A stretch of 22,185 nt of DNA from a virus (lineage: Duplodnaviria; Heunggongvirae; Uroviricota; Caudoviricetes). The position numbers were made by a program, and so were the translations under genes. Of the stretch, positions 2 to 21,640 are shown one piece after another. The stretch lies in the IMG/VR virus record IMGVR_UViG_3300027608_000020, one strand, 5' to 3'. The notes below the pieces were generated by a model, which did not search any database, was not told the DNA's origin, and worked only from the letters and a program-made list of their open reading frames with translations. How positions within the stretch are numbered: the first letter of the stretch is position 1; each line of letters starts with the position of its first letter.

Positions 2-1489
2 GAAGAACGCCTAAAGATGGTTATTAGTGCGCTAGAAAAGAAAAAGAAGTGTATCTTGTTTATTGACGAAGCTCATATGATGAGCGGTGCTGGGGCAGTC
101 GGTGGTGGCAGTAACGATATGAGTAATATGCTTAAACCTGTATTGGGTAAAGGAAGTATTAAAGTTATTGCTAGTACCACGTGGGAAGAATTCCGTAAGC
201 ACTTTGAAAAGGATCGTGCCCTAATGCGTCGGTTCCAACGTGTCACGGTGGGCGAGCCCGACGAAGCAACTGCTATTAAGATCCTTATGGGGCTTAAAAA
301 ATATTACGAAAAATACCATGGCGTTAAGATTAACAAGCAGGCAATAGTGGATGCGGTTAAGTATAGCGTTAAGTACATGAGCGACAAGAAATTACCAGAT
401 AAAGCAATCGACCTAATTGATTGTGCCTGTGCCCGCTTCAAGGTTAAAGACGAAGATAATGGTGTAGTAGACCATGATGAAATTGTATTTGAAGTAAGTA
501 AGATTACAGGGTTGCCGTTAGATCAAATTGCATCAAAAGAAAGTCGTAATCTTAAAGACCTAGATAAAAATCTGCGTAGTAAAGTATATGGACAGGAAAA
601 AGCGATCGAAACATTGCTTGATAAAATCTATATTGCACAGGCAGGGTTAAAAGCTCTTAATAAACCAGTAGGTAGTTTCTTGTTTGCAGGACCAACCGGT
701 GTTGGTAAAACAGAAGTTGCTAAACAACTTGCTTTAGGCATGAGTGTAGAACTAGTACGCTTTGATATGAGCGAATTCCAAGAGAAACACTCTATTGCTA
801 AGTTTATTGGTGCTCCTCCGGGCTATATTGGATTTGATGACAATGCAGGTCAATTGATTACTAAACTACAAGAACATCCTAATTGTGTTCTGTTGTTAGA
901 CGAAGTTGAAAAGGCGCACCCCGATGTGTTAACCATTATGCTTCAATTAATGGACAACGGATTTATTACCGGTAGTAATGGTAAGAAAGCAGACGGACGC
1001 AATGCTATTCTTATTATGACCAGTAATTTAGGTGCGGCAGATTCTGAAAAGAATAGCGTAGGTTTTGGTAGTTTAGAACGAGACAGCGATCCTAAGGATG
1101 CTATTAACAAATTCTTTGCTCCTGAATTCCGCAATCGATTGGACGGTATTATCCGCTTTGGTAAGTTAGACCAAACAACAATGATTAAAATTGTTAAGAA
1201 GTTTATTGATGAGCTCAATGTGCTACTCAAAGATAGAAACGTTCATGTTAAACTTAACGCAGACGCTGTTGAGCTGTTAATCAAGAAAGGATTTGACAGT
1301 AAAATGGGTGCTCGTCCACTACAACGTACTATTGATGAGTTTATCAAGAAACCATTGAGTAAAGAAATCCTATTTGGAAAACTAGTTGATGGCGGAGTTG
1401 TTGAATTAACTGTTGATAAAGATACTCTGTGTATTAATTACGTAGAAGTGCTATCAGTTAAAAACACCACCGAAGCAGAAACTGTTTAA
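2..1489 (+). CDS. clpA: ATP-dependent Clp protease ATP-binding subunit, ClpA type (5' truncated by window edge)
   Basis: Frame is open from base 2 (EERLKM...). NBD1 Walker B ILFIDEAH; NBD2 Walker A GPTGVGKT, RFDMSEF, pore loop GAPPGYIGF, Walker B LLLDEVEK, PEFRNRLD, MGARPL. No ClpB-type middle coiled coil between the NBDs. ClpP-docking-like VGF at 1058-1066. Confidence 0.93.
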   Translation, partial: EERLKMVISALEKKKKCILFIDEAHMMSGAGAVGGGSNDMSNMLKPVLGKGSIKVIASTTWEEFRKHFEKDRALMRRFQRVTVGEPDEATAIKILMGLKKYYEKYHGVKINKQAIVDAVKYSVKYMSDKKLPDKAIDLIDCACARFKVKDEDNGVVDHDEIVFEVSKITGLPLDQIASKESRNLKDLDKNLRSKVYGQEKAIETLLDKIYIAQAGLKALNKPVGSFLFAGPTGVGKTEVAKQLALGMSVELVRFDMSEFQEKHSIAKFIGAPPGYIGFDDNAGQLITKLQEHPNCVLLLDEVEKAHPDVLTIMLQLMDNGFITGSNGKKADGRNAILIMTSNLGAADSEKNSVGFGSLERDSDPKDAINKFFAPEFRNRLDGIIRFGKLDQTTMIKIVKKFIDELNVLLKDRNVHVKLNADAVELLIKKGFDSKMGARPLQRTIDEFIKKPLSKEILFGKLVDGGVVELTVDKDTLCINYVEVLSVKNTTEAETV

Positions 1490-1952: not shown

Positions 1953-1959
1953 ATAAATA
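1953..1959 (+). promoter_or_regulatory. Putative phage late promoter (ATAAATA)
   Basis: Intergenic ATAAATA upstream of the 1978/2022/2423 gene run. Confidence 0.55.
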
Positions 1960-2021: not shown

Positions 2022-2426
2022 ATGAAACTATACGAATTTTTTAACGTCCCTGTCGACAAAAAAGATAGGAAATTCCCCGATTACGGCAAAAGTAAAACAG
2101 AAGAAGAAAAAGCCAAGATGGCCGATGAGCTATTTTGGTATATTATTGATAATGATGCACTACACAAAGCACATGTTCTACCATTTGTAAAAGAATTAAA
2201 AACACAGATAACTTCACCAGATTTTAACAGAAACAGATTCACTAAATCATGGATGCCTATGGTTAATAAAGGCTGTAGGTTATTTTACAAACATCATAAA
2301 CTAACAGATAATCCAGCAAAGCTATTTGACGAAGATTTTAAAGACGAACTATGCAAAAGACTTTGTGATAAGTTTATAGATGATGTGCAAGAAGATTACT
2401 ATCAGGTCGGAGATCATAAAAAATGA
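2022..2426 (+). CDS. Hypothetical protein with capsid-targeting-like N-terminus (MKLYEFF)
   Basis: 134-aa ORF; ATGA overlap with the next gene; shares the N-terminal motif with neighbours. Confidence 0.8.
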   Translation: MKLYEFFNVPVDKKDRKFPDYGKSKTEEEKAKMADELFWYIIDNDALHKAHVLPFVKELKTQITSPDFNRNRFTKSWMPMVNKGCRLFYKHHKLTDNPAKLFDEDFKDELCKRLCDKFIDDVQEDYYQVGDHKK

Positions 2427-5400
2427 TCTTAAACGAGTTATTCAAACCTAAAAAGACTGTTCCTCTTTTTGAAGGTGGCAACTTAGAATTACCCAATCCT
2501 AACGATCCCACTGCACCTTATCAAGCTGACGAGATCGATCTCAAAGTACAAAACCGTAGTTTTATGGTGGGGTTACTAGATAAATTATTAAACGACATCA
2601 ATGGTGCTTTTTATAGCAAATACAAAAAGCCATTGTGGAATCCTAATTTACTACAATCAAAACAATTCTTAGGTGGCAGTAGTTTACATTTCTTTAATAC
2701 AGATGGTATTAGTGACAAAGAGTTTACTAAACATAAACCTAAAGTTGGCGACATTGATACACAATGTAATAAAGAACTTGAACCAGAGATTAGAGATTTT
2801 TTAACTGCATACGATCATAAACAAATAGGCGATACAACACTATTAGGATTTAGTCAAGGTAGTGAACAACTTAATGCACTATTTCAATTCCAAGATCCTC
2901 CTATTAAAATTCAAATAGATTTTGAATTTGGTCGATATGATACAGAAACAGACATGCCCGATGAGTGGTATCGCTTTAGTCATAGTTCAGAATGGAACGA
3001 CATTCAAGCAGGCATCAAAGGTGTTTTTCACAAATACATATATCGTGCATTAACTTCTGCACATAGTAGTGTTAAACATCAAGTAGATGTAAAGAAAACA
3101 AAAACAAATATTAAACCAAATGTACGTGACAACGATTTATCGTTTGCAGTTGCTAGTGGTCAGGGGGGCGGGCTAAGTCAAAAGTACGAACCTTATATTA
3201 ATACCGATCCAGAGACTGGTGAAAAGCAAACTCACAAGGACGAAGTTCCTTACAAGAGATTAATACCATCTGCTCAGAGAACCTACATACAGAATTTAGA
3301 TAAACAATTCTACTATTTCTTTGGCGCAAATCCCGAAGGCAATGATAAAGAATTACAAAAGAGTTTCTTAGGAACACTCGAGTTAATTAACAAATATATT
3401 CCAGATCCTGCTTCTAAAGAAAGTGTGTTTATGGCTTTCTTAGATCTTTGTTTTGAGCCAGGTAATGCTCAAATGATCACTAAGAATGATCCAGAGCGTG
3501 ATCAAGAAATTAAGTTTGCCGCAATTGATAACTTTGTTAAGGTGGGCAAGCTAGGTAAGTTGAGAAATACTGCCATAGAAATGGGCAAGGCCTACATGGA
3601 TGAGTTCAATGAAGTGCAAGCCTACAAGAAAGAACATCCGGAAGAAAAACAACCACGTGCCGCATTGAAGAGAGCAAAAGCCGCAAGTCAACCCGCAAAT
3701 GAAAACTTTGCTGATACACAAACTTTAGAAGAACGCCGTAATAAAAAACGTAAAGCTCGTCATGCTGCCTATGGTCCTGGCCTGTACGGTGGATATGGAT
3801 ATTACGCTGACTACAGCGGAGACAGTTCAGGTGATGGCGGGGGTGGTGATGGCGGGGGTGAAAGCATTAAGAATGAAGATGCCATGATGGGCAAGATAGC
3901 AGACTCGGGCAAAATTATTCGCATCTTGAAGAAAGCACATACGGTACCATTTAGCGATGAAAAAAACTGGTTGCTGGTAGATATGGATCCTGCCAAAGGC
4001 AACAATGGGCTGGGTATCAAATGGATACCTGCTGACACAAGATTTACTTGGGTAAGGCCTTATAGAGATAATGTGGGGCAAGGTGTGGCGGAAGGAGCAA
4101 CGGTTACACGAATTGATAGTAACCCTATCACGGATTTTGGGTCTAGTCTTAAAGCATACAAGCATACGGATGATTGGAGCCAAAGTGGTGTAGACACAGG
4201 TGACGATAGTTATTGGAAGAATAAAAATCTTAAAACTAATACTACTAAAGGATTGTTTGCTGGTGATCCAAGGAGAACAGCATTATACGCAACTGGCAAC
4301 GCACACGAAACACGCTATGTAGAGTTTACACAAAACGGCCAACCCATTGTTTATTTTGACCGCAAAGATTTGCCAGCAATGCGTAGTCGTAAAACTTACT
4401 TAACTGTGTTTGATGCTAGCGATTTCAGACAATTACCTACAGGTGAATGGTTTAGTGAAAATCCTAGTAAGCCTATCAAGCAGGTGCCCATTGGTGACCC
4501 ATTCAAATACATCGCCGATCAAGGGTGGATAGTTCGTGTTACTGATGATTTAGATAAAGTATTCAAACAAGTAAAGAACATGCACAAAGCAGGTAAAATT
4601 GCTCAATATGGTGCAGAAGGTATGAATGAAAGTAAGCAAGGTGTGGCGGAGAACTTTGCCGATGGAAAGAATCCGCAAGACAAGGGCGACAGCAAACGTC
4701 ACGGAGTTCCAACCAAAGCAAGCATAAGTACATTACGCAATGTTGCCAAACAAGGCGGACGTAAAGGACAGTTAGCACATTGGATGGCTAATATGAAAGC
4801 TGGTAAGGCTAAACACGAAAGTTTAAACGAAGCCGAAGTAAAAGCACAACTGCGTAAAGGCATGCCGCATCTTAAAGATCTTAAGGCCGCTGACTTTTTA
4901 GATTTACTAGATGAGATACACGACGGTAACGGTAATTTCAAATTAGAAAATATGCCGTTAAATGTTAAGGTAGACGGCTTTGGTGGGCGATTTGGTAAGA
5001 ACGCAGATGGTAAACCTTTTATGGGTACCAGCCGGACTGAGCCAAGATATGCACCGGGATTTGTAAAATACCATCAAGAAAAAGGTACACAAGATCCAGA
5101 GATACTAGGTCGTGCTAAACTGTTTGATGACTTGTTTGTAGAAATGATGAACGCTGTTAAATTAGTTGACAGCAAGTTAGGGCCAGACTTTTTAATAGAC
5201 AAACAAGTAAGTTGTGAAGTATTATTTTTACCATTTGCTACAGAAACTGAAGAAGGTAAATTAAAGTTTGTTGGTATTCATTATGACAAACTTCCACAAG
5301 GTGTACAACTTGCACTAGTTCCATTAAACGTAGTAACTGCTAGTACAGGTGAGCCTGTTGAAAATTCTCAGGAAGTTATAAAAGAATTAACAGGCCTCGG

Positions 5401-8400
5401 ACAACAAAGTAGTGTTATGTTTATCGACAACAGTCTAACACAAAACAAAGCATTAGATGTTACCGCAATTGTTCCACCGTTAGAAAATATTGAAGAACTA
5501 AAAAGCATAGTATCAGATACCGCAGGTAAAAGAGATCGTACTAGCTTAGAACTTAGAAAAAATGTTGAAGCACAATTACAACCAGTTAAACTTGCATTAG
5601 AAAAAGCCATTGCAGAAGATCCTAACATTGTCGGTAAAGATATGTTAGGCAAAGACTACGAAGGTATTGTACTAAACACAAGATTAGGTCCTGTAAAAAT
5701 TACCAGTACAGAACAACGTGCAGTCATTGCCGGTAAGCAGGCCGCCAAAACATCAGCAAGAACAGAACGTCCGAGAGGCGAATCTAAGACTGCTGTAGTA
5801 GCAATAGGATCCTTTATTGGGCATAAAGGACACGAAGAACTGTTTAACTATACAATTAATAAGGCCAGCGAACTAGGCGGTGATCCTTATTTGTTTATTG
5901 GCAATGCTGAAGGCAAAGATGATCCTATTCCGCCAGCAGTCAAGGTACAAACATGGCACAAATTATATCCCGAGTATGCTAAAAATATTAGCACAGTACA
6001 ACAAGGTGGACAATTAATACAAAAGATCAAACATGAATTAATTAATCCATTGCCAAATAAGCCTCCACGTTATGATAATATTGTTATCATGGTAGGCGAA
6101 GATCGGAAAGATCTTAATATGCCCCAAGCATTAATGAAGGCTGTTAATAAGTTTCAAGGGTACGAGCATGTTAAGGTAAGCCTCGGTGTTACACCTCGAG
6201 GAACTGGAATTAGCGGAACAATGTTACGCAACAGTTTAAAAAGTGATCCGCCAGAGAAAGCATTGGCTGTATGGTCAAATGCGTTCGATGTTAAAAAATT
6301 AGGCGAGGATTGGATCAACCATTTAATGGATATAACAAGGAAAGGTATGGGAATACAACAACAAACTCAACAACAACCTGCTCCTGTAGCTGAAAGATTG
6401 TTCAATGCATTGATGGCACCTAAAGTTAATGAATCAACTAGCTTAGAATCAACAATTAAAAATATTGTCACTAATGGTGAATCAATTGCACAATTATATG
6501 AAAAATTAAAAGCAATGGCCAAGCGTTGGGTTGATAACAATGGTAGTCTAAAAGGGTATCATCGCAACGCCGCGGGTCAAAGCGCACAGTGGTTTAACAA
6601 TTTCTATTGGAATAAAATGCAGGGAGATCTATATGATCTAACCAAACAGGCTTCAAAATATGCGCCTCCGTTATTGGCCTTCTTAAAAGATGCTAGTGAA
6701 GATAGAGAAAGACATATTAACTTTAGAGAAATTAGTTCAAGCCTACCGTCTATACTACAACAAATTGGTACAAGGATGGGAAATAAAGAACTATCATCAT
6801 TTGGTGCCAACTGGAATAAACGTCAGCAAGATTACGAAAACTATCTAGCACAAATTGAAGCAGAAGTTGATACAGATGACGATGATGGATATGAAGAACC
6901 TAAAGCACCAAAAGACAATACTTTTGGTAAACAAAATGTTCAAGCAGATCAAATTGTAAACGATATTCTAAAAAATCTCCCTAGCAAAGTAGCAGGAGAT
7001 ATTCGTAATGCTATTGCACGTAGTCCCAATAAATTACAAGCATTGCAAGCAGAATTACAAAAGCGCGGAGTTAAAGCACCAATGGCAGAAAGTTTAATTG
7101 AATCTGCTCGAATGAGTGCGGCAGTTAAACTACAACGTGCTTGGGAACGTGAGCAAGCTAAGAGCACTGCAAGTCGCAAGCGTGGCGAAGAGTATATGAA
7201 TCAGATCAAGCAAGATGTTGCTAATAAAAATAAAAAACCAGACGAGACAAAAGATGAAAGTATCATGGGATTTTTAGCAACACCTAAACACTCTATTGAA
7301 AAGAAATCTACTACAAGTTCGGCAGACATGCGTAAGTATTTTGAAAAAGACAAACCTAGCAAGCCTGAAAAAACGGAGAGGGGCGACGGTGGAGAAAAGA
7401 TACAACGAGTATATACAAGATCTGATGAAGACCAAGAAACTCCTCAACAACAACAGGTCCGTGCCGCAATTACTAAAGGTTTAGAAGTACACAAACAAAA
7501 AGGTGATGCCGAATATAAAACTCGGTTAGATCGATCCAATAAAGTTGGTACAGTACCTGGGCATTATTTTGATCCTAGAGGATATGCCAGTGATAAACTT
7601 TCCGGGATAGATTCCATTGATCCTAATGGTACTGTGGTTATATCTCTCCAGGATACTAGTGCCGAAGGCTGGATTAAAAAATTAGCAACATTAGGCGGTA
7701 TGCCTGGTGTTAAGACTAGACAAATTCAACCGGGTCAGGGTGTAGCGGAAGACAACTTAAATGAATTAGATATGTTTGCTCCTCGTACTGTTTATTTTAA
7801 GATGGGTGACGGTAATTATATTAAAGCAGATTATCGAGGAAGTGAAACTATTTTTGGCGGCGGACACAAAGCAAATGACCAGGTGAACTTTACATCAATG
7901 TCATGGGTTTCTACCAATACCGCTAGATCATTAGGACTTGATAAAACATTAGCAAAAGGATCTGATCCTAATGACACAAGAAGTCGAAATGCACAAAGTA
8001 TTGTATCTCCTCAGTATGTAGGGCAAGCCGGCCCTTGGGGTAATAGAAGTGTAGACGTAGTAGATTTTGTAAACAGCAAAGAAGAGACAGTTCCGTCAGA
8101 ACTAAAAACACAAGTGGCGCAGTGGGTAGAAAAAAATCGCCCCAAGAAAGGTGTGGCGGAAGGCAATCTAAAAGAATTTGCACCAGGTCCTGGAGGCGGA
8201 GAATCAGGACGCTGGTACACAGACGATCAACTAACTGATATTGTCGGTGATGGATGGTACAACGATTTAGATGTAAGCGGTGATATTCCCAAACAACAAA
8301 TGATCCAACAAGCACAGGCCTGGTTAGATGATCAAGGCTATAATGTTCAAGTATTAAACTGTAAAGTAAATGATGACGACATGGAATGGTATATTGAAGG

Positions 8401-9202
8401 TAGTTTCCAAAATTCTCGCTTTGCTAAAAAGGGTGTGGCGGAAAACAACCCTGCGGCAGGTATCAACAAAATGTTCAACAACCTAGGTGATCCTGTGTAT
8501 GCTAACCTACAACGAGTAGCTTTATTGGCCATGCAAGGCAGGCAGCAAGAAGCCTCCGGCCGCTTACAAACAGTGATCAAGGATGCTGATCCAGCTGTGC
8601 AGAAGAAAATCACAGATGCTGTGAACAACATCAAGCCTGTGACAATAAATGGTCGTGCGGCAGACTCTAGCACACTGGACAAAAGCAAACAGCACAATGA
8701 CTGGATCATCAACACATTCATTCCATGGGTGCAATCTTTATTGGGTAAGCAAGGTGTGGCGGAAGGTTCTAGCGGTGCCAAATACAAAGTAAGAAGCATC
8801 GGACAAGACAAGAAAGGTGAGTACTACATTAGCCCAAGCACCGGTGAGAAAGTCTACAAGAAAGCAAAAGTAGGCGACCACGAAGTACCCAATACTAAAG
8901 AAATTAAACCTAAAGTAGAAGCAATGATGCCTGCAAGTAACTTTGCAGGAAGTAAAAAGAATAAACTAGGTACAGCTGGGCAATTAAAAGCAACTGCTAA
9001 ACATGCTCGAGCAGGTGATCTAGTTGGTTCTGCAGAAAGTATACAATCCGAAGATCAACGTCTAGATCCTAAGTGTTGGAAGGGCTATCGCAAGCAAGGT
9101 ACTAAGATGAAGGGTGGTACTCGTGTTAATAATTGCGTCAAAGTTAGCGAAGATATTGAGAACAAGATGTCAGACTTAATCAGACTTCTAGAAAATAAAT
9201 AA
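2423..9202 (+). CDS. Giant modular protein (2,259 aa), putative head-packaged polyprotein with Pol-beta-like NTase, ligase-like and HxGH nucleotidyltransferase domains
   Basis: Uninterrupted ORF. N-terminus MILNELF; GGSS (2672) + GDID (2747-2758) + IQID (2909-2920); KVDG (4967-4978), CEV, EGIVL (5660-5674), VKI; HKGH (5822-5833), VGEDR, ISGTMLR (6209-6229); six [QK]GVAE repeats; C-terminal CWKGY...NCVK module. Confidence 0.85.
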   Translation: MILNELFKPKKTVPLFEGGNLELPNPNDPTAPYQADEIDLKVQNRSFMVGLLDKLLNDINGAFYSKYKKPLWNPNLLQSKQFLGGSSLHFFNTDGISDKEFTKHKPKVGDIDTQCNKELEPEIRDFLTAYDHKQIGDTTLLGFSQGSEQLNALFQFQDPPIKIQIDFEFGRYDTETDMPDEWYRFSHSSEWNDIQAGIKGVFHKYIYRALTSAHSSVKHQVDVKKTKTNIKPNVRDNDLSFAVASGQGGGLSQKYEPYINTDPETGEKQTHKDEVPYKRLIPSAQRTYIQNLDKQFYYFFGANPEGNDKELQKSFLGTLELINKYIPDPASKESVFMAFLDLCFEPGNAQMITKNDPERDQEIKFAAIDNFVKVGKLGKLRNTAIEMGKAYMDEFNEVQAYKKEHPEEKQPRAALKRAKAASQPANENFADTQTLEERRNKKRKARHAAYGPGLYGGYGYYADYSGDSSGDGGGGDGGGESIKNEDAMMGKIADSGKIIRILKKAHTVPFSDEKNWLLVDMDPAKGNNGLGIKWIPADTRFTWVRPYRDNVGQGVAEGATVTRIDSNPITDFGSSLKAYKHTDDWSQSGVDTGDDSYWKNKNLKTNTTKGLFAGDPRRTALYATGNAHETRYVEFTQNGQPIVYFDRKDLPAMRSRKTYLTVFDASDFRQLPTGEWFSENPSKPIKQVPIGDPFKYIADQGWIVRVTDDLDKVFKQVKNMHKAGKIAQYGAEGMNESKQGVAENFADGKNPQDKGDSKRHGVPTKASISTLRNVAKQGGRKGQLAHWMANMKAGKAKHESLNEAEVKAQLRKGMPHLKDLKAADFLDLLDEIHDGNGNFKLENMPLNVKVDGFGGRFGKNADGKPFMGTSRTEPRYAPGFVKYHQEKGTQDPEILGRAKLFDDLFVEMMNAVKLVDSKLGPDFLIDKQVSCEVLFLPFATETEEGKLKFVGIHYDKLPQGVQLALVPLNVVTASTGEPVENSQEVIKELTGLGQQSSVMFIDNSLTQNKALDVTAIVPPLENIEELKSIVSDTAGKRDRTSLELRKNVEAQLQPVKLALEKAIAEDPNIVGKDMLGKDYEGIVLNTRLGPVKITSTEQRAVIAGKQAAKTSARTERPRGESKTAVVAIGSFIGHKGHEELFNYTINKASELGGDPYLFIGNAEGKDDPIPPAVKVQTWHKLYPEYAKNISTVQQGGQLIQKIKHELINPLPNKPPRYDNIVIMVGEDRKDLNMPQALMKAVNKFQGYEHVKVSLGVTPRGTGISGTMLRNSLKSDPPEKALAVWSNAFDVKKLGEDWINHLMDITRKGMGIQQQTQQQPAPVAERLFNALMAPKVNESTSLESTIKNIVTNGESIAQLYEKLKAMAKRWVDNNGSLKGYHRNAAGQSAQWFNNFYWNKMQGDLYDLTKQASKYAPPLLAFLKDASEDRERHINFREISSSLPSILQQIGTRMGNKELSSFGANWNKRQQDYENYLAQIEAEVDTDDDDGYEEPKAPKDNTFGKQNVQADQIVNDILKNLPSKVAGDIRNAIARSPNKLQALQAELQKRGVKAPMAESLIESARMSAAVKLQRAWEREQAKSTASRKRGEEYMNQIKQDVANKNKKPDETKDESIMGFLATPKHSIEKKSTTSSADMRKYFEKDKPSKPEKTERGDGGEKIQRVYTRSDEDQETPQQQQVRAAITKGLEVHKQKGDAEYKTRLDRSNKVGTVPGHYFDPRGYASDKLSGIDSIDPNGTVVISLQDTSAEGWIKKLATLGGMPGVKTRQIQPGQGVAEDNLNELDMFAPRTVYFKMGDGNYIKADYRGSETIFGGGHKANDQVNFTSMSWVSTNTARSLGLDKTLAKGSDPNDTRSRNAQSIVSPQYVGQAGPWGNRSVDVVDFVNSKEETVPSELKTQVAQWVEKNRPKKGVAEGNLKEFAPGPGGGESGRWYTDDQLTDIVGDGWYNDLDVSGDIPKQQMIQQAQAWLDDQGYNVQVLNCKVNDDDMEWYIEGSFQNSRFAKKGVAENNPAAGINKMFNNLGDPVYANLQRVALLAMQGRQQEASGRLQTVIKDADPAVQKKITDAVNNIKPVTINGRAADSSTLDKSKQHNDWIINTFIPWVQSLLGKQGVAEGSSGAKYKVRSIGQDKKGEYYISPSTGEKVYKKAKVGDHEVPNTKEIKPKVEAMMPASNFAGSKKNKLGTAGQLKATAKHARAGDLVGSAESIQSEDQRLDPKCWKGYRKQGTKMKGGTRVNNCVKVSEDIENKMSDLIRLLENK
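3830..3859 (+). repeat. Perfect tandem 15-nt repeat GGTGATGGCGGGGGT x2 (GDGGG GDGGG linker)
   Basis: Read directly: 3830-3844 and 3845-3859, ending a Gly/Tyr-rich module. Confidence 0.9.
4079..4096 (+). repeat. GVAE repeat copy 1 (CAAGGTGTGGCGGAAGGA)
   Basis: In-frame QGVAEG; core GGTGTGGCGGA. Confidence 0.9.
4637..4651 (+). repeat. GVAE repeat copy 2 (CAAGGTGTGGCGGAG)
   Basis: In-frame QGVAE; 19 nt (4632-4650) identical to 8745-8763. Confidence 0.9.
7736..7750 (+). repeat. GVAE repeat copy 3 (CAGGGTGTAGCGGAA, one core mismatch)
   Basis: In-frame QGVAE; GTA instead of GTG. Confidence 0.85.
8147..8164 (+). repeat. GVAE repeat copy 4 (AAAGGTGTGGCGGAAGGC)
   Basis: In-frame KGVAEG. Confidence 0.9.
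8429..8443 (+). repeat. GVAE repeat copy 5 (AAGGGTGTGGCGGAA)
   Basis: In-frame KGVAE. Confidence 0.9.
8750..8767 (+). repeat. GVAE repeat copy 6 (CAAGGTGTGGCGGAAGGT)
   Basis: In-frame QGVAEG; 18 nt (8749-8766) identical to 4078-4095. Confidence 0.9.
9195..9201 (+). promoter_or_regulatory. Possible late promoter (ATAAATA) overlapping the giant-ORF stop, upstream of dps
   Basis: Same heptamer as 1494 and 1953; could be chance in AT-rich DNA. Confidence 0.35.
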
Positions 9203-9210
9203 CATATTAA

Positions 9211-9663
9211 ATGGATTTAAAAATGGAAGATTTACGTAAGGCTGCTAAGATAGGTTTCGCAAGCGAATTTAGTTTTTATCTAAAGGCGCATAACTACCAT
9301 TGGAATGTTGTGGGCAGTGACTTTTTAGAATATCATCAACTGTTTGGTGCTGTATACGAAGAAGTGTATGCAAGCATCGATATCTTTGCTGAAAAAATTC
9401 GTAGCTTAGGCACCTTTGTTCCCGGAAGTCTAAGCGCATTTAGTATGCTTAGTACAGTTCCAGATGAAAATAGTCTTCCACCTAAAGAAGCAATGGTTGC
9501 AGAATTATTGCAAGATAACGAACGCATGATAGAAGTTTTAAAATTAGTTTATGATCTAGCAGAAAAATACGGTGAACACGGATTTAGTAATTTCTTAGCA
9601 GAACGTATGGATGCACATCGTAAACACGGCTGGATGTTAAGTGCTAGCCTACAAGGACAATAA
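9211..9663 (+). CDS. dps: Dps family ferritin-like (DNA protection during starvation) protein
   Basis: LKAHNYHWNVVG...HQLF...YEE, DIFAEKIRSLG and HRKHGWML are Dps signatures. Alternative start ATG 9223 (MEDLRK). Confidence 0.93.
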   Translation: MDLKMEDLRKAAKIGFASEFSFYLKAHNYHWNVVGSDFLEYHQLFGAVYEEVYASIDIFAEKIRSLGTFVPGSLSAFSMLSTVPDENSLPPKEAMVAELLQDNERMIEVLKLVYDLAEKYGEHGFSNFLAERMDAHRKHGWMLSASLQGQ

Positions 9664-9664
9664 T

Positions 9665-10033
9665 ATGCGTTTTAAAGAATTCATTGTTGAAAAGAAAAAA
9701 GGTCATATTACTAAAAGAGTGCAACAGCCAAGTCGAGGGATTAATACCTACGGAGACGAGGAACGTGTAAGCGGTGATTATGTTTCATTTAAATTAGGAC
9801 AGGCAATGGCAATGGCCGACGGTTCAAATAAACCATTAGACATTGATGCAAAAAGCTGGCATGGAAAAAAGAAAACAACTCAACCTTATTCCGAAATAGA
9901 ACAAAAAATGTTTTTGCAAGCAGCCAAGGCTGTGGGAGCCAGTGCTGTAGACGTTAACAACGGCGATATGAAAAGCAAAGAGTTAGACGACACGCACACA
10001 GTAAGCCCTATAAGTAACTGGATGAAAAAATGA
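9665..10033 (+). CDS. Hypothetical protein with T4 internal-protein-like N-terminus (MRFKEFIVE)
   Basis: Start moved from 9641 to ATG 9665, right after the dps stop; N-terminus resembles T4 IPII/IPIII MKTYQEFIAE. Confidence 0.78.
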   Translation: MRFKEFIVEKKKGHITKRVQQPSRGINTYGDEERVSGDYVSFKLGQAMAMADGSNKPLDIDAKSWHGKKKTTQPYSEIEQKMFLQAAKAVGASAVDVNNGDMKSKELDDTHTVSPISNWMKK

Positions 10034-10488
10034 AAATACACGACCTAGTACAAGAAAATGACATGACCTCATTTTTTAAGAATCTTCAAAAAACAGATCC
10101 AAAGTTTAAAAATCTGCGAATTCACGGAGATCCAGAACATGACGAGTTACGTAAGCAAGATGAACTAAAACGTCAAGCAGACCGAACCGATCGTGAGGAT
10201 AAAGCACAACAGGCTAGGGCGGCACAGGTTGAACAAGATAGAAAAAATCTTCCACAATTAGTAAAACAACTTGAACAACTACGAGCACAGTTTGATCCTA
10301 ATTTTGAATATAGTGATGATCATAGTTTTTGGTCTAAGCAAAAAGATTTACAGAGTCAGTTATATGCACTACAAGCAAGAATAAATGCCGCAGGTGGTGC
10401 TCAAGAAAGTGCAAGCGGTGGTTCAACTAGCTCATCAGCTGTTCCACAAGGACCCGGCAAAGGTCGTCCAGATAGTATAGTAGTGTGA
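10030..10488 (+). CDS. Hypothetical coiled-coil protein with capsid-targeting-like N-terminus (MKIHDLVQE)
   Basis: 152 aa, Q/K/E-rich helical middle, C-terminal ESASGGSTSSSAV low-complexity module; ATGA overlap with the upstream gene. Confidence 0.78.
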   Translation: MKIHDLVQENDMTSFFKNLQKTDPKFKNLRIHGDPEHDELRKQDELKRQADRTDREDKAQQARAAQVEQDRKNLPQLVKQLEQLRAQFDPNFEYSDDHSFWSKQKDLQSQLYALQARINAAGGAQESASGGSTSSSAVPQGPGKGRPDSIVV

Positions 10489-10496
10489 GAAATATT

Positions 10497-10976
10497 ATGA
10501 ACAAAAAAACATTAAAAGAATTTAACGGTGAATATGATGACGAAGCAGGAATGGCTGCAGGTAGTCTTCATACACTAAAAAGAGCCGTAGATGGGCTAAT
10601 GAATACTATCGATGAAAACGATAACTTGCCAGAATGGTGTCAAGAAAAGATTTCTTTAGCTGAAGATTATCTGGTTACTGTTTGGGATTACATACAAAGC
10701 GAAAAAGCTCAAGGAAACGATCCAGAGATTAACGAAAATAAAAAAGGCGTTAAGGCTATGAAGCATACTAAAAAACCAAAACCTATCAATCCTGTAGCAA
10801 AACATGCTATGGCCTCATTGGGCGGCGGGGCGGCGGGCGCACATAAAGATAAAAAGAAAGCCGAAACTGTTCCACGTAAATCAAAGCATAAAAAGGCCGC
10901 AACAGTATCTGAAAGCTGGTACGAATTACGGTTACAAACTTTGCTAGAAGCTAATGTACGGGCTATGAAAAAATGA
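10497..10976 (+). CDS. Hypothetical modular protein (acidic helical module plus Lys-rich basic module), probable internal head protein
   Basis: ATG 10497 preferred over GTG 10485; modules separated by TLKE, EINE, TVSE (hydrophobic-x-E) sites. Confidence 0.75.
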   Translation: MNKKTLKEFNGEYDDEAGMAAGSLHTLKRAVDGLMNTIDENDNLPEWCQEKISLAEDYLVTVWDYIQSEKAQGNDPEINENKKGVKAMKHTKKPKPINPVAKHAMASLGGGAAGAHKDKKKAETVPRKSKHKKAATVSESWYELRLQTLLEANVRAMKK

Positions 10977-11225: not shown

Positions 11226-11798
11226 ATGCGGTTGTATGATCTAAATGAATCTAGCCCTGGGACATTCGAAGGCAGCAACACTCCTGATTTAATAAAAAGC
11301 AAAGAATGGTTGTGTGAAATACTAGTCGGATTAGATTTAGATATTTCAGAATTTTCAACAATCTATATACTAGGTTCATGGTATGGTAATATGGCCTATG
11401 CACTCAAACATGCCAGCATACCATTTAATAAAATTATAAATGTAGATACTAACAAAGATGTACTAGACAAGTCTGATAAAATGCTTCGGGCGGCGGGTAT
11501 TGATAATTTAGTAAGCATGGACAAAGATGCCAACACTTTAAATTATCAACAGGCAACCGCAGATAGTTTAATAATAAACACCAGCACAAAAGATATAGAA
11601 GGTACTGCATGGTATAAAAACATTCCACGCGGTATATTGATTGCACTACAAGGTAGAGATGCTGTTAAAGACCCGTTTAAAGATCTAAACGAATTTGATA
11701 AAACCTTCCCTATGTCGACTACCTTATTCTTAGGTAAAAAGACACTAGAAGATCCAGATACTGATTATCTCCGTTTTATGAAAATTGGCATAAAATAA
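11226..11798 (+). CDS. Putative class I SAM-dependent methyltransferase-like protein with capsid-targeting-like N-terminus (MRLYDLNE)
   Basis: ATG 11226 preferred (track start 11184 overlaps the upstream gene). IYILGSWYG (motif I-like), IINVD (acidic end of strand 2), KDAN, LIINTS. Confidence 0.6.
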   Translation: MRLYDLNESSPGTFEGSNTPDLIKSKEWLCEILVGLDLDISEFSTIYILGSWYGNMAYALKHASIPFNKIINVDTNKDVLDKSDKMLRAAGIDNLVSMDKDANTLNYQQATADSLIINTSTKDIEGTAWYKNIPRGILIALQGRDAVKDPFKDLNEFDKTFPMSTTLFLGKKTLEDPDTDYLRFMKIGIK

Positions 11799-11799: not shown

Positions 11800-11828
11800 T
11801 TGACCTTTTAGTTTCTACCAAGTATAAT
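11800..11828 (+). promoter_or_regulatory. Sigma70-type promoter TTGACC-N17-TATAAT
   Basis: -35 at 11800-11805, 17-nt spacer, perfect -10 at 11823-11828, RBS AGGAG 11836-11840, ATG 11848. Confidence 0.85.
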
Positions 11829-12483: not shown

Positions 12484-15153
12484 ATGAGTTATGTAGATGC
12501 CATATGGGATCGCGACAATGACATTATCAAAGTTGTAGAGCGTGATCCAAAGAAGGGAAGGATATTTCAAGAATTTCCAGCCCGTTATGTATTTTATTAT
12601 CCTGATCAAAAGGGTAAGTACAGATCAATTTACGGCGAAAGCCTGTCCAAAGTGGTATGCAAAAGCCACAAAGAATTTCAAAAAGAACAACGTATCCACA
12701 ACAATCAACGATTGTTCGAAAGCGATATTAATCAAGTTTTTAGATCACTAGAAGAAAACTATCTAGGTAAAGATGCCCCAAAACTCAACGTAGCGTTTTG
12801 GGACATCGAGGTGGACTTTGATCCAGAACGAGGCTATGCAAGTCCAGATGATGCGTTCATGCCAATCACTGCTATCGCTGTTCACCTACAATGGTTAGAC
12901 ACATTAATATGCCTTGCTATTCCTCCCAAAACACTTACCATGGAACAGGCGAAGGAACAGGTTAAAGATTTTCCAAATACAATTCTGTTTGAAACAGAAG
13001 GAGAAATGTTAGATACATTTTTAACATTGATTGAAGATGCTGATGTGTTAAGTGGGTGGAACAGCGAAGGCTTTGATATGCCCTATACTGTAAATCGTAT
13101 TATTAAAGTGTTAAGCAAGGATGATACTCGTAGATTATGTCTATGGGATGCAATGCCTAAAAAGAGAGAGTATGAGAAGTATGGAAAAGCGGCTGTTACT
13201 TATGATCTGGTTGGTCGTGTTCATCTGGACAGTCTCGAGCTGTACCGCAAGTATACATACGAAGAACGCCATACTTACCGACTTGATGCGATTGGAGAAT
13301 TAGAAGTAGGCGAAACTAAGACACAATACGAAGGTACACTGGATCAACTGTACAATAATGACTTTAAGAAGTTTATCGAATATAACAGACAAGATACTGC
13401 ATTATTAAACAAACTAGATAAGAAATTAAGGTTTATTGATCTTGCTAATACACTGGCACATGAATGTACTGTATTGCTACAAACCACAATGGGTGCTGTA
13501 GCAGTAACTGAACAGGCTATTGTAAATGAAGCACATCATAGAGGTTTGATTGTTCCAAGTCGACCAAAGCGTGATGAGGATGCTAGTAATCAGGCCGCAG
13601 GTGCGTATGTTGCCTATCCAAAGAAAGGACTTCACGATTGGATCGGATCAATGGACATCAACAGTCTGTATCCATCTGTAATTCGTGCATTGAACATGGG
13701 GCCGGAAACTATTGTCGGTCAGCTACGCCAAACATACACTCAAGCAGAAATTGATGCTAAGATTGCTAAAGGTAATAGTTTTGCCGCGGCATGGGAAGGT
13801 AAGTTTGGTGCTAATGAATATGAGTTTGTTATGAATAAAGACAAAGCTCACGAAATTCACGTTGACTGGGAAAACGGTGATACTGATGTACTTACTGGAG
13901 CACAAATCTATGAAATGATTTTTGAAAGTAATCAGCCATGGGTACTAAGTGCTAACGGTACTATCTTTACCTATGAAAAAGAAGGTATTATTCCTGGACT
14001 ACTAAAACGCTGGTATGCTGAACGTAAAGAAATGCAGGCCAAACTAAAAGATGCAATTAAAGCGGAGAATAAAATTGAAGAAGAATATTGGGACAAGAGA
14101 CAATTGGTTAAAAAGATTAACCTTAATAGCTTATACGGTGCTATACTTAACGCTGGCTGTAGGTTTTTCGATAATCGTATTGGTCAGTCAACCACGCTTA
14201 CCGGCCGAGGCATTGCCCGCCATATGGCCGCAAAAATAAATGAAGTAGTCACAGGCGAGTATAACCATACTGGCAAGGCTATCATCTACGGTGATACTGA
14301 TTCTGCATATTTCTCGGCATACGCAACCCTTAGGAAAGAAATTGATAAAAAAGAAATTCCTTGGACAAGAGACAGTATTATTCAATTGTATGATACCGTT
14401 GCTGAAGAAGTAAACAGTACATTCCCACAGTTTATGTTAGATGCACATCACTGCCCTAAATCGCGCGGTGAAGTTATTAAGGCAGGACGTGAGATTGTAG
14501 CAGTTAAAGGCTTGTTTATTACCAAGAAGCGTTATGCTGTATTGTATTACGACAAAGAAGGTAAACGACAAGACATAGACGGAAAGCCTGGAAAGATCAA
14601 GGCCATGGGCTTGGATCTTAAGCGTAGCGATACGCCGGAATTTATGCAGAAGTTCTTAGAAGAAATTCTAACTGATGTACTTAACGGTGCCCAGGAGACA
14701 GATATTCTAGAACGCATTAGCGAGTTTCGCACTGAGTTCAAAGCTAGACCCGGTTGGGAGAAAGGTAGTCCAAAACGTGCTAACAATATTACGGACTATC
14801 AAGCTAAGGAAGCCAAGGCAGGTAGAGCAAATATGCCCGGACACGTTCGTGCTAGCATTAATTGGAATACTCTAAAACGCATGAACGGAGACAAATACTC
14901 AATGGGTATTGTTGATGGCATGAAAGTTATTGTATGTAAGGTTAAGGATAATCCTTTAGGCTATACATCAATTGCTTATCCAGTTGATGAATTACGGTTA
15001 CCTAAGTGGTTTCAGGATTTACCATTTGATCATGCAGAAATGGAAGCCACTATTATTAATAACAAACTCGAAAATCTTATTGGGGTTCTAGAGTGGGACT
15101 TGGGGTCCACTACACAAACTAACACGTTTGGTTCGCTATTCACATTTGAATAA
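12484..15153 (+). CDS. polB: Family B DNA polymerase with 3'-5' exonuclease (T4 gp43-like)
   Basis: Exo I WDIEVD, Exo II GWNSEGFDMPY, Exo III YNRQD; polymerase motifs DINSLYPS, KKINLNSLYG, YGDTDS, KKRY, KAMGLD. No intein-sized insertion. Confidence 0.97.
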   Translation: MSYVDAIWDRDNDIIKVVERDPKKGRIFQEFPARYVFYYPDQKGKYRSIYGESLSKVVCKSHKEFQKEQRIHNNQRLFESDINQVFRSLEENYLGKDAPKLNVAFWDIEVDFDPERGYASPDDAFMPITAIAVHLQWLDTLICLAIPPKTLTMEQAKEQVKDFPNTILFETEGEMLDTFLTLIEDADVLSGWNSEGFDMPYTVNRIIKVLSKDDTRRLCLWDAMPKKREYEKYGKAAVTYDLVGRVHLDSLELYRKYTYEERHTYRLDAIGELEVGETKTQYEGTLDQLYNNDFKKFIEYNRQDTALLNKLDKKLRFIDLANTLAHECTVLLQTTMGAVAVTEQAIVNEAHHRGLIVPSRPKRDEDASNQAAGAYVAYPKKGLHDWIGSMDINSLYPSVIRALNMGPETIVGQLRQTYTQAEIDAKIAKGNSFAAAWEGKFGANEYEFVMNKDKAHEIHVDWENGDTDVLTGAQIYEMIFESNQPWVLSANGTIFTYEKEGIIPGLLKRWYAERKEMQAKLKDAIKAENKIEEEYWDKRQLVKKINLNSLYGAILNAGCRFFDNRIGQSTTLTGRGIARHMAAKINEVVTGEYNHTGKAIIYGDTDSAYFSAYATLRKEIDKKEIPWTRDSIIQLYDTVAEEVNSTFPQFMLDAHHCPKSRGEVIKAGREIVAVKGLFITKKRYAVLYYDKEGKRQDIDGKPGKIKAMGLDLKRSDTPEFMQKFLEEILTDVLNGAQETDILERISEFRTEFKARPGWEKGSPKRANNITDYQAKEAKAGRANMPGHVRASINWNTLKRMNGDKYSMGIVDGMKVIVCKVKDNPLGYTSIAYPVDELRLPKWFQDLPFDHAEMEATIINNKLENLIGVLEWDLGSTTQTNTFGSLFTFE

Positions 15154-15942: not shown

Positions 15943-16304
15943 TAAAAAGCCTTACACAACAGGGAATGTTTACACAGGTTAGCAACGGCTCTCCTGCTCC
16001 GACATATTATCAAACTGGACAACCTATGTCCGGTCAGGTAAGATATTGCAATAACGAATTTGAAGTTTACGACGGCTCAATTTGGCATAAGATACAAGGT
16101 TCATATGCAAGTGTAGGATTAACATCAAACGCCGAATCTGCAATAAATTGGGCATTAGGTAAAATGAACGAAGAAAAAGAACTTCAAAAATTAAGTAATG
16201 AAAACCCTGCTGTTAAGATTGCATATGAAAATATGAAACGTGCCGCTAAACAATTAGAAATAACACAAATATTAAGCAAAGAAGAATATGAATCCACCAG
16301 TTAA
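15939..16304 (+). CDS. Hypothetical protein
   Basis: 121 aa, ATGA overlap; beta-rich N-half (FEVYDGSIW), helical C-half. Confidence 0.7.
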   Translation: MIKSLTQQGMFTQVSNGSPAPTYYQTGQPMSGQVRYCNNEFEVYDGSIWHKIQGSYASVGLTSNAESAINWALGKMNEEKELQKLSNENPAVKIAYENMKRAAKQLEITQILSKEEYESTS

Positions 16305-17823: not shown

Positions 17824-17829
17824 AAAAAC

Positions 17830-19453: not shown

Positions 19454-19454
19454 A

Positions 19455-21601: not shown

Positions 21602-21640
21602 AAACAAATGTCATCCACGACACAAACTCGGAGAATTTAA

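What the first reader, a model, noticed from the sequence alone, without database searches (positions are those of the whole stretch)
2423..9202. 2,259-aa candidate virion-packaged, protease-processed enzyme polyprotein
Seen: the ORF begins with the N-terminal motif shared by its small neighbours (MILNELF...PLFE). It is punctuated by hydrophobic-x-Glu sites that fall at apparent domain borders (PLFE, TLEE, GVAE x6, SLNE, KVNE, PMAE, NLNE, NLKE, KVSE) and carries three enzyme-like nucleotide-transfer domains plus about ten small modules. Established: T4 internal proteins are routed into the prohead by an N-terminal signal and cut by the gp21 protease after (I/L)-x-E, then injected with the DNA. 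Inference: this gene encodes a payload that is cut inside the head into many separate effectors delivered at infection, before any phage gene is expressed.
Basis: partly seen in the sequence, partly recalled or inferred. Interest (0 to 1): 0.9.

Follow-up and report, generated by a model that had tools for sequence, protein, structure and literature searches.

The report
Shuffled head-cargo polyprotein of jumbo phage
One 2,259-residue gene of an uncultured giant T4-type phage strings three nucleotide-transfer enzymes and about nine small modules together through linkers that look like capsid-protease cutting sites and are also the places where related phages swap modules, so it is probably a precursor of proteins carried in the phage head, although cutting and packaging of this protein have not been shown.

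Summary
The ORF (2423-9202, +, 2,259 aa, 251 kDa) is real. GVAE occurs six times (expected 0.05). The three enzyme domains are confirmed: a Pol-beta-type nucleotidyltransferase, an ATP-ligase-like domain and a PPAT/NMNAT-like adenylyltransferase.

Comparison with about 450 relatives shows that modules always follow hydrophobic-x-Glu. P1 was Glu in 95 of 95 distinct upstream contexts of three modules, and P3 was hydrophobic in 86 of 95. The same modules occur as stand-alone genes behind leaders such as MRAKEFIAE, close to the T4 capsid-targeting sequence.

AlphaFold puts the border sites in floppy segments and the other sites inside folded cores. All three complete genomes examined from the same clade encode a T4-type prohead protease. 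A homologue of the N-terminal enzyme, with the same kind of leader, was found by mass spectrometry in virions of Campylobacter phage IBB_35.

The junction is also fixed as DNA (66 of 100 junctions use GGT GTG GCG, 0.65% expected), and near-identical phages differ by whole modules at junctions. It therefore probably also serves as an in-frame recombination handle.

Packaging, cleavage and injection of this protein remain inferred. This scan noted the same phenomenon earlier on other genomes. I found no published description in the papers searched.

The parts
2423..9202 (+). Whole polyprotein ORF, 2,259 aa, 251.5 kDa. Its start codon overlaps the stop of the upstream gene (ATGA).
2423..2473 (+). 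N-terminal leader, aa 1-17 (MILNELF...PLFE), ending in L-F-E just before the conserved GGN start of the enzyme
   Evidence: pLDDT is below 50 for residues 1-16. The Campylobacter homologues start MKLSELMFILE|GGN, while the Vibrio and Xanthomonas homologues start MGGN.
2474..3733 (+). M1, Pol-beta-type nucleotidyltransferase, aa 18-437 (invariant S86, G109-D110-x-D112, D166)
   Evidence: AF2 pLDDT 90.9. Structural matches to Pol mu/beta/lambda, TUT7, Trf4 and PAP at Z 6.5-7.8. Invariant residues from A4.
3734..3877 (+). Lys/Arg-rich then Gly/Tyr-rich segment, aa 438-485. In stand-alone relatives it follows the N-terminal leader directly.
3878..4093 (+). M2, aa 486-557, ending in GVAE junction 1 (4082-4093)
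4094..4651 (+). M3, DUF6886-like module, aa 558-743, ending in GVAE junction 2 (4640-4651)
4652..4831 (+). M4, basic 60-aa NFADG...AHWMANMK module, aa 744-803, ending in SLNE
4832..6394 (+). M5+M6, ATP-ligase-like domain (KVDG) fused to an HxGH/ISGT adenylyltransferase of PPAT/NMNAT fold, aa 804-1324. There is no E-site in the inter-domain linker. The unit ends in PVAE.
6395..7090 (+). Short spacer ending in KVNE (aa 1325-1337), then M7 (aa 1338-1556) ending in PMAE
7091..7750 (+). M8, aa 1557-1776, ending in GVAE junction 3 (7739-7750, GGTGTAGCGGAA)
7751..8161 (+). M9, aa 1777-1913, starting DNLNE|L and ending in GVAE junction 4 (8150-8161)
8162..8443 (+). M10, aa 1914-2007, starting GNLKE|FAPG and ending in GVAE junction 5 (8432-8443)
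8444..8764 (+). M11, aa 2008-2114, ending in GVAE junction 6 (8753-8764)
8765..9199 (+). M12, aa 2115-2259, with the C-terminal CWKGY...NC motif
2022..2426 (+). Upstream small gene starting MKLYEFF, translationally coupled to the polyprotein
9665..10033 (+). Small gene with the leader MRFKEFIVE
10030..10488 (+). Small gene with the leader MKIHDLVQE. Its C-terminal part is an internal module in relatives.
10497..10976 (+). Small gene starting MNKKTLKE|F. It is 64-67% identical to an internal module of the polyproteins of L003, L006 and L009.
11226..11798 (+). Methyltransferase-like gene starting MRLYDLNE

Best explanation
The gene encodes a capsid-cargo polyprotein of a T4-superfamily jumbo phage.

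Inferred steps:
- The 17-residue leader, as in T4 internal proteins, takes the precursor into the assembling prohead core.
- The gp21-type (Peptidase S77) prohead protease then cuts after Glu in hydrophobic-x-Glu junctions: PLFE, TLEE, six GVAE, SLNE, PVAE/KVNE, PMAE and the paired NLNE/NLKE.
- This releases about 12 products of 5-57 kDa that remain in the head and enter the host with the DNA.
- The products include a 48-kDa Pol-beta-type nucleotidyltransferase and a 57-kDa ligase-like plus PPAT/NMNAT-like bifunctional enzyme. These plausibly form a nucleic-acid end-repair or nucleotide-cofactor set that acts before phage genes are expressed.

Shown by comparison:
- The commonest junction, Q-GVAE-G, is also fixed at the DNA level (CAA GGT GTG GCG GAA G).
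- Related phages gain, lose and replace modules in frame at the junctions, and at the conserved junction DNA where a break point could be resolved to nucleotides (junction 6). The linker therefore probably doubles as a recombination handle that reshuffles the cargo set.
For: 1. Junction rule. The residue before three well-defined modules is Glu in 48/48, 37/37 and 10/10 distinct and otherwise unrelated upstream contexts. P3 is V/L/M/I/F in 39/48, 37/37 and 10/10, against a 23% background (P = 3e-17, 4e-24, 5e-7). The junction varies (GVAE, SVAE, GMAE, SLNE, VLKE, VTE), so the rule holds at protein level.

2. Leaders. 74 of 1,546 unique ORF N-termini in the related loci match M[KR]..[ED]hh.E (MRAKEFIAE, MRANEFITE, MKINELLTE), against 0.3% at internal Met. 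The T4 targeting sequence is MKTYQEFIAE. T4 gp21 cuts after L/I-x-E, and the 10-residue sequence is enough for packaging (PMC9026906).

3. The same cargo is found either behind a leader (stand-alone gene) or behind an internal junction.

4. Clade genomes G004, G005 and G006 (PolB 65-74% identical to the window's) encode PF03420 protease next to a scaffold gene and a Gp23-type capsid gene.

5. AlphaFold: the leader, TLEE437, GVAE743, SLNE803 and PVAE/KVNE lie in low-pLDDT segments. The nine other h-x-E sites lie in confident helices or strands.

6. Experimental support. Gene 1-56 of T4-like Campylobacter phage vB_CcoM-IBB_35 is homologous to aa 15-377 (29% identity, E = 1e-27) and starts MKLSELMFILE|GGN. 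It was identified in purified virions by ESI-MS/MS at 17% coverage (PMC3322345 Table S2).

7. DNA handle. GGT GTG GCG encodes 66 of 100 distinct junctions, against 0.65% expected (P about 1e-118). The 11-mer occurs in clade genomes only at this locus. L001, 90-96% identical elsewhere, lacks aa 450-742 and has one unrelated module in place of three; at junction 6 homology resumes at the conserved junction DNA and at junction 2 right after the Glu codon, while at junction 3 the upstream flank already diverges.
Against: - No proteomic, N-terminal or expression data exist for this protein or for any GVAE protein.
- The window's own genome is not held, so its protease is inferred from relatives.
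- P3 is mostly Val, whereas the T4 consensus is Leu/Ile.
- A 251-kDa precursor is far larger than any T4 cargo demonstrated.
- Strong synonymous conservation is not needed for a protease site, so another, nucleic-acid-level function may be the primary one.
- The three enzymes occur as ordinary adjacent genes without leaders in Xanthomonas phage BUDD, and the first one lacks a leader in Vibrio phage Va1. The enzymes therefore need not be virion cargo.
- The C-terminal half (four GVAE sites) could not be folded, so its sites are supported by comparison only.
- The IBB_35 study did not report processing.
Confidence: 0.6

Rival explanations
1. It is an uncleaved giant multidomain ('polyvalent') protein. 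The junctions are only flexible linkers and in-frame recombination handles. The protein acts as one chain, either in the cytoplasm or packaged whole, like the N4 virion RNA polymerase.
For: The junction DNA is conserved far beyond what the amino acids require, and modules are swapped there. Polyvalent proteins of phages are often transferred unprocessed (PMC5512222). The enzyme trio works as separate cytoplasm-type genes in phage BUDD.
Against: This does not explain why P1 is always Glu and P3 hydrophobic even when the junction DNA and residues differ. It does not explain why stand-alone versions carry T4-type targeting leaders ending in the same motif. It does not explain why junctions are often doubled (GVAE-G-x-L-N-E in 26 of 122, against a 7.9% background).
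Confidence: 0.2
2. The polyprotein is processed, but by a different protease: one embedded in or encoded next to such proteins (for example the HExxH zincin-like modules seen in relatives), or a host glutamyl endopeptidase. Processing would then be unrelated to head assembly.
For: Relatives P0189 and P0292 carry a C-terminal HELVH module. Zincin-like peptidases are the commonest domain of polyvalent proteins and are proposed to auto-process them (PMC5512222).
Against: No peptidase-like module was detected in this ORF. The site motif and the leaders match the gp21 system specifically. A gp21-type protease is present in all three complete clade genomes.
Confidence: 0.08
3. The primary function of the repeat lies at the nucleic-acid level: a recombination or homing target, or an mRNA signal such as a ribosome pause at rare GTG-GCG codons between domains. 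On this view the GVAE peptide is incidental.
For: GCG is used at 82% of junctions against 7.5% elsewhere. The conserved core extends to about 16-18 nt. The motif occurs only on the coding strand and only in this locus.
Against: About a third of junctions use other codons yet keep GVAE. Many equivalent junctions use quite different residues and DNA but keep h-x-E. No enzyme or structure that recognises the motif was identified.
Confidence: 0.12

Closest known systems
T4 internal proteins IPI, IPII, IPIII and Alt: capsid-targeting sequence plus gp21 processing
   Same: A short N-terminal leader (T4 MKTYQEFIAE; here MRAKEFIAE-type, and MILNELF...PLFE on this ORF) ends in hydrophobic-x-Glu. The cargo behind it is diverse and otherwise unrelated. 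The loci are hypervariable. The clade has a gp21-type protease.
   Different: T4 cargo proteins are single small proteins (Alt is 75 kDa) with one or two cuts. Here up to about 13 modules are chained in one 251-kDa ORF with internal sites, and the linker is itself a conserved DNA element. Nothing has been shown experimentally for this clade.
Polyvalent proteins of phages and conjugative elements (Iyer et al. 2017, PMC5512222)
   Same: Many biochemically unrelated domains lie in one polypeptide of a phage. They are predicted to be delivered with the DNA, are extensively mosaic, and processing into parts has been proposed.
   Different: The hallmark domains (zincin-like MPTase, ART, MuF, ArdC-N and others) were not detected in this ORF. 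Release here would use the capsid protease at a stereotyped repeated linker, which that study does not describe.
Ejection and inner-body proteins of phiKZ, 201phi2-1 and SPN3US, cut by gp175/gp245
   Same: These are giant phages in which many head proteins are cut after Glu at a short motif, several times per protein, by a gp21 homologue. A bolus of proteins is ejected into the host (PMC9026906).
   Different: The motif differs (S/A-x-E), the phage lineage is unrelated, and the proteins are paralogous structural proteins rather than chains of unrelated shuffled modules. No DNA-level junction is known there.
PeSL mobile regulatory cassettes of T4-type phages (Arbiol et al. 2010, PMC2839356)
   Same: Short conserved DNA elements flank non-essential genes in hyperplastic regions and mediate modular shuffling by recombination. 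They are also associated with the T-even IP loci.
   Different: PeSLs are intergenic promoter and stem-loop units about 50-100 nt long. Here the element is a 12-18-nt coding sequence, and exchanges must stay in frame.
Campylobacter phage vB_CcoM-IBB_35 gene 1-56 / CP220 gp100
   Same: It is a homologue of aa 15-377 (E = 1e-27) with a leader ending I-L-E|GGN, and it was detected in virions by mass spectrometry (PMC3322345).
   Different: It is a stand-alone 389-aa protein with no further modules and no GVAE. Its cleavage has not been examined.

Membership tests
T4-type capsid-targeted internal cargo (CTS plus gp21 processing) | N-terminal targeting leader of about 10 residues that ends in hydrophobic-x-Glu | tested here: met
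   The ORF has MILNELF...PLFE|GGN (17 aa, disordered in AF2). Neighbours and 74 relatives have M[KR]..[ED]hh.E leaders, enriched 15-fold over internal Met. The resemblance to MKTYQEFIAE is by sequence only.
T4-type capsid-targeted internal cargo (CTS plus gp21 processing) | The phage encodes a gp21-type (Peptidase S77) prohead protease with a T4-type scaffold and capsid | tested here: inconclusive
   Met in the three complete clade genomes G004, G005 and G006 (E = 1e-24 to 1e-26; PolB 65-74% identical). The window's own genome is not held.
T4-type capsid-targeted internal cargo (CTS plus gp21 processing) | The protein is present inside virions | tested here: inconclusive
   Published mass spectrometry covers only a homologue of the first domain, in IBB_35 (PMC3322345).
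T4-type capsid-targeted internal cargo (CTS plus gp21 processing) | The protein is cleaved after Glu by the prohead protease | not testable with these tools
   Only positional evidence exists: the sites lie at module borders and in low-pLDDT segments.
Polyvalent proteins (Iyer et al. 2017) | Two to 15 unrelated, conflict-type domains in one phage polypeptide | tested here: met
   About 13 modules, three of them enzymes.
Polyvalent proteins (Iyer et al. 2017) | Hallmark domains such as zincin-like MPTase, ART, MuF or ParB | tested here: inconclusive
   None was detected in this ORF by Pfam or NCBIfam. Relatives combine the same modules with HExxH, ParB, Nudix and deaminase domains.
Pol-beta-superfamily nucleotidyltransferases | G[SG]S ... 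DxD ... D catalytic motifs on the Pol-beta palm fold | tested here: met
   S86, G109, D110, D112 and D166 are invariant in 76 sequences. All structural neighbours are Pol-beta-fold enzymes, though only at Z 5-7.8.
ATP-dependent polynucleotide ligases / covalent nucleotidyltransferases | KxDG motif I lysine on the adenylyltransferase fold | tested here: inconclusive
   KVDG is conserved in the consensus. Foldseek hits are Trl1-LIG (E = 1.6e-5), ligase IV and archaeal RNA ligase 5d1o. Motifs III-V were not checked and the domain was not searched on its own.
HIGH-signature (PPAT/NMNAT/FADS) nucleotidyltransferases | HxGH and ISxT motifs on a Rossmann-like fold | tested here: met
   GHKGH and GISGT are nearly invariant. 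PPAT 3pxu gives Z 13.8, rmsd 2.7 over 148 aa, and NMNATs give Z about 12. A RibF profile hit has E = 7e-4. The substrate is unknown.
PeSL modular-shuffling cassettes | Intergenic early promoter plus stem-loop terminator unit | tested here: not met
   The conserved element is coding and in frame, 12-18 nt long, with no promoter or hairpin. It works like a PeSL but is not one.

The most novel reading that the evidence does not exclude
Freshwater jumbo phages of the T4 superfamily run a combinatorial cargo system. Hundreds of effector and enzyme modules are kept as in-frame cassettes. A universal 18-nt linker is at once the capsid-protease cut site and the target of a dedicated, or at least strongly favoured, recombination pathway. 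A phage population can therefore re-deal the set of proteins it injects, including ready-made nucleic-acid repair and cofactor enzymes, without ever breaking the reading frame.
Probability: 0.3. Interest if true: 0.85.

Novelty: new variant of a known kind. Interest (0 to 1): 0.74.

Why it matters
If this is right, the T4 internal-protein principle (address tag plus protease site) has been scaled up in environmental jumbo phages into large, rapidly shuffled polyproteins. These would pre-load the capsid with enzymes and probable counter-defence factors.

- It would give a sequence rule (leader plus h-x-E junctions) for predicting injected proteins from metagenomes.
- It would provide a large catalogue of candidate anti-defence modules: more than 1,700 proteins share just two of the modules.
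- It would be a natural example of a coding linker selected both as a peptide and as a DNA recombination site.
- It would suggest a design principle for loading several cargos into engineered T4-type capsids.

Tried and rejected
- Megablast of the whole window against cultured phages found nothing.
- Pfam, NCBIfam and PHROGs scans named none of the enzyme domains beyond a borderline DUF6886 hit (27-bit cut-off reached only when the segment was scanned alone) and weak FAD_syn hits.
- A profile search of PDB sequences found only the HxGH motif region for the core and nothing for the first domain.
- The window's own genome is not held, so its protease and capsid genes could not be sought.
- An alignment of non-collinear module fragments for the C-terminal 929 aa (A1) was misaligned by MAFFT, as a local test confirmed. 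That half was therefore not folded, and both fold jobs went to collinear sets.
- The ESM Atlas gave no usable hit for module M7.
- The T4 late-promoter motif TATAAATA is absent. ATAAATA occurs three times, one of them 63 nt upstream of the small gene that precedes the ORF, which is too little to call. The sigma-70 and terminator scans were at chance level.
- Aligning clade capsid proteins with T4 gp23 showed a shared N-terminus and an L-x-E 22 residues before the conserved core. It did not place the T4 cut site unambiguously.
- Repoila et al. 1994 is not held.
- Complex prediction was not used, because a protease-substrate pair is a poor case for it.
Full report
**What is there**

The window is a stretch of an uncultured T4-superfamily jumbo phage. 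Its family-B DNA polymerase (12484-15153) is 44-51% identical to those of phages Phosso, Atu_ph07 and the 121Q group. It is 65-86% identical to polymerases on large IMG/VR contigs, three of which are complete genomes of 345-400 kb.

The flagged ORF is real: 2423-9202, + strand, 2,259 codons, 251.5 kDa. Its ATG overlaps the stop of a small upstream gene.

GVAE occurs six times, against 0.05 expected from composition (P = 2e-11). Hydrophobic-x-Glu as such is not special: there are 31 such sites. The question is therefore where they lie.

**Module map and borders**

I ran three searches:
- IMG/VR loci
- the 5.8-billion-protein set
- the 1.8-billion representative set

Every part of the ORF has many relatives. 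There are 1,735 proteins at E <= 1e-3 for aa 486-800 alone and 1,493 for aa 1331-2259. These occur in proteins of very different length and order.

Homology break points cluster at aa ~378-440, 743, 803, 1310-1340, ~1555, 1776, 1913, 2007 and 2114.

A relative that is 90-96% identical elsewhere (L001) lacks aa 450-742. It also has one unrelated Cys-rich module where the window has three, between aa 1777 and 2101. At junction 6 the switch from unrelated to 95%-identical DNA occurs at AAGCAAGGTGTGGCGGAAGG, and at junction 2 homology resumes right after the Glu codon. At junction 3 the flank just upstream of the junction is already diverged, so that break point is less sharp.

The window's stand-alone gene at 10497-10976 is 64-67% identical to an internal module of the polyproteins of L003, L006 and L009. 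In proteins that keep modules M2 and M4, the module between them is replaced by GNAT-like, SGNH-like or other sequences.

**The junction rule**

For three modules with sharply defined starts I collected every distinct upstream context.

| Module | Distinct contexts | P1 = Glu | P3 = V/L/M/I/F |
|---|---|---|---|
| NFADG module | 48 | 48 | 39 |
| DUF6886-like module | 37 | 37 | 37 |
| Ligase-like domain | 10 | 10 | 10 |

The background frequency of V/L/M/I/F is 23%, giving P = 3e-17, 4e-24 and 5e-7.

The junction is not always GVAE. SVAE, GMAE, SLNE, VLKE, VDE, LEE, VTE and others occur, so the constraint acts on the peptide. Of 122 GVAE junctions, 26 are followed within eight residues by a second h-x-E (GVAE-G-S-L-N-E|F), against a 7.9% background.

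**Leaders**

When the same modules are stand-alone genes they begin with short leaders that end in the same motif:
- MKIHELLE|NFADG
- MRANEFVTE|NFADG
- MFLRELIVE|DAMMG
- MRYKEILE|ACW
- MKAGLAEGLNE|AEVKAQ
- MRASEFVTE|RKK...GYGYY

In the related loci, 74 of 1,546 unique N-termini match M[KR]..[ED]hh.E, against 0.3% of internal Met positions. Many read MRA[KRQ]EFI[AT]E.

The T4 capsid-targeting sequence is MKTYQEFIAE. In T4 its first ten residues suffice for packaging. Residues 4 and 7 matter for targeting and residues 8 and 10 for processing. gp21 cuts after L/I-x-E (PMC9026906).

The flagged ORF has a longer leader, MILNELF...PLFE|GGN. Five neighbouring genes between 2022 and 11798 have related N-termini.

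**Protease in the clade**

The window's own genome is not held. The three complete genomes of the same clade each encode Peptidase_S77 (E = 1e-24 to 1e-26). The gene lies next to a scaffold gene and a Gp23-type major capsid gene (E about 1e-98).

Their capsid proteins share the T4 gp23 N-terminus (ELL..W...LLEG). They carry Y-L-[AK]-E 22 residues before the conserved core. This is consistent with an L-x-E maturation cut, though the alignment does not prove it. The T4 cut after Glu65 is from my own knowledge.

**Structure**

Two collinear alignments gave good AlphaFold models.

*aa 1-445* (pLDDT 90.9, pTM 0.85): residues 1-16 are below 50, and confidence falls again from about 421. PLFE17 and TLEE437 therefore flank the fold, while sites 394 and 397 sit in a confident helix.

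All structural neighbours are Pol-beta-fold nucleotidyltransferases: Pol mu, beta and lambda, TdT, TUT7, Trf4, GLD-2, PAP, OAS and CD-NTases. They score only Z 5-7.8. The invariant residues S86, G109-D110-x-D112 and D166 fit that superfamily.

*aa 738-1345* (pLDDT 81): the basic M4 module and SLNE803 are low-confidence. The fold runs from about 807 to 1312. PVAE1324 and KVNE1337 lie in the floppy tail. The seven internal h-x-E sites lie in helices or strands.

The C-terminal domain (aa 1121-1312) has the PPAT/NMNAT fold (3pxu Z 13.8, rmsd 2.7 over 148 residues). It carries the HxGH and ISxT motifs.

The N-terminal domain carries KVDG. Foldseek matches it to fungal tRNA ligase Trl1-LIG (E = 1.6e-5), DNA ligase IV and an archaeal RNA ligase. 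No E-site separates these two domains, so they would remain one 57-kDa enzyme.

Overall, 7 of 16 h-x-E sites in the modelled stretches fall in the 14% floppy residues (p = 0.003).

The C-terminal half could not be folded. Its module fragments are not collinear and MAFFT misaligned them.

**Experimental anchor**

The first domain has stand-alone homologues in cultured phages. In the T4-like Campylobacter phages they begin MKLSELMFILE|GGN. The pairwise alignment with the window ORF starts exactly at LFE|GGN versus ILE|GGN (E = 1e-27). In Vibrio phage Va1 and Xanthomonas phage BUDD the protein starts MGGN, with no leader.

The Campylobacter phage vB_CcoM-IBB_35 copy is gene 1-56 (39251-40417). 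It is listed among 38 proteins identified by ESI-MS/MS in purified virions, at 17% coverage (PMC3322345, Tables S1/S2). This is direct evidence that this enzyme family can be virion cargo in a phage with a gp21-type protease. Processing was not examined.

**DNA-level conservation**

Among 100 distinct junctions from the window and 80 loci, 66 use GGT GTG GCG, where local codon usage predicts 0.65%. Usage by codon:
- GCG: 82% against 7.5%
- GTG: 75% against 23%
- GGT: 92% against 38%

(P about 1e-118)

Information content extends from the preceding CAA to the following G, about 16-18 nt.

The 11-mer occurs in clade genomes only at this locus and only on the coding strand: 4, 4, 3 and 2 copies, and 0 for the reversed control.

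A protease site does not need this. Together with the module swaps at junctions, it points to recombination within the junction. This is analogous to PeSL-mediated shuffling of T4 hyperplastic regions, including the IP loci (PMC2839356), but here in frame. No recombinase, structure or mechanism was identified, so this part stays unexplained in detail.

**Most likely mechanism and its status**

*Shown:*
- the modular anatomy
- the junction rule
- the leaders
- the folds of three enzyme domains
- the DNA conservation
- module exchange at junctions
- the protease in clade genomes
- virion presence of one homologue

*Inferred:*
- this precursor is targeted to the prohead
- it is cut after Glu into about 12 products (48, 5, 8, 21, 6.5, 57, 25, 24.5, 15, 10.5, 12 and 16 kDa)
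- the products are injected

The biochemical role of the enzymes is a guess: a terminal or gap-filling transferase, a ligase-like enzyme and a PPAT/NMNAT-like adenylyltransferase. Nucleic-acid end repair or cofactor regeneration against host nucleases or NAD-depleting defences is plausible but untested.

In phage BUDD, the first domain and the adenylyltransferase lie in a run of four adjacent genes, and a KxDG-bearing protein (motif KLDGF) sits between them; only two pieces of the window ORF aligned there, so the homology of the middle genes was not shown. This suggests the enzymes work together. It also shows they need not be virion proteins.

**Comparison and novelty**

The system works like T4 IP/Alt cargo and like the multiply cleaved ejection proteins of phiKZ-type phages. 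It also fits the general idea of polyvalent proteins (PMC5512222).

It differs in three ways:
- it chains many unrelated modules
- it uses a stereotyped repeated linker
- that linker is conserved as DNA

Searches of the held literature for the targeting sequence together with polyproteins, and for GVAE in phages, found no description.

This scan had already noted the same phenomenon on other genomes and on this stretch. My analysis reached the same reading from independent data. It adds the published virion detection of a homologue as an experimental anchor that I did not see in those notes, and the leaderless outgroups. I rate it a new variant of a known kind.

Noticed in passing
window 4652-4831 (aa 744-803): The basic 60-aa NFADG...AHWMANMK module is 85-95% identical in well over a thousand proteins, and it is usually the last module of relatives' proteins. 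AlphaFold nevertheless gives it pLDDT below 50. It may be a DNA- or core-binding anchor rather than an effector.
   Followed up: partly
window 9211-9663: A Dps/ferritin-like gene lies directly after the polyprotein. A homologue (40-97% identity) sits beside the cargo locus in about 50 of the 80 related loci. The reason for this linkage is unknown.
   Followed up: no
window 2-1489: A phage-encoded ClpA/ClpB-type double-AAA+ unfoldase (its C-terminal 490 aa are in the window) lies just upstream of the cargo genes.
   Followed up: no
window 16288-22185: A DpdA-like transglycosylase, QueD, a GT-B glycosyltransferase, a UDP-sugar dehydrogenase and FolE form a 7-deazaguanine DNA-modification cluster downstream of PolB and the clamp.
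   Followed up: no
relatives P0189 and P0292 (C-terminal about 100 aa); P0211, P0216, P0247, P0263, P0281: The same M2/M3/M4 modules are combined elsewhere with an HELVH zincin-like module and with Nudix, ParB, cytidylyltransferase and dCMP-deaminase domains, often at 90-99% identity. This implies very recent exchange within a phage population.
   Followed up: partly
L089 2339-5688 (Xanthomonas phage BUDD): Four adjacent leaderless genes: a homologue of the first enzyme domain, an unknown protein, a protein carrying a KxDG motif (KLDGF), and an annotated adenylyl/cytidylyltransferase. This suggests that the enzymes form one pathway.
   Followed up: partly
window 1953-1959: ATAAATA, the core of the T4 late-promoter motif, is depleted in the window (3 copies against 9 expected). 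One copy lies in the only real intergenic gap, 63 nt upstream of the small gene that is translationally coupled to the polyprotein.
   Followed up: partly
window 11800-11828: A near-consensus sigma-70-type promoter (TTGACC, 17 nt, TATAAT) lies right after the last leader-bearing gene. It may mark the end of the cargo transcription unit.
   Followed up: no
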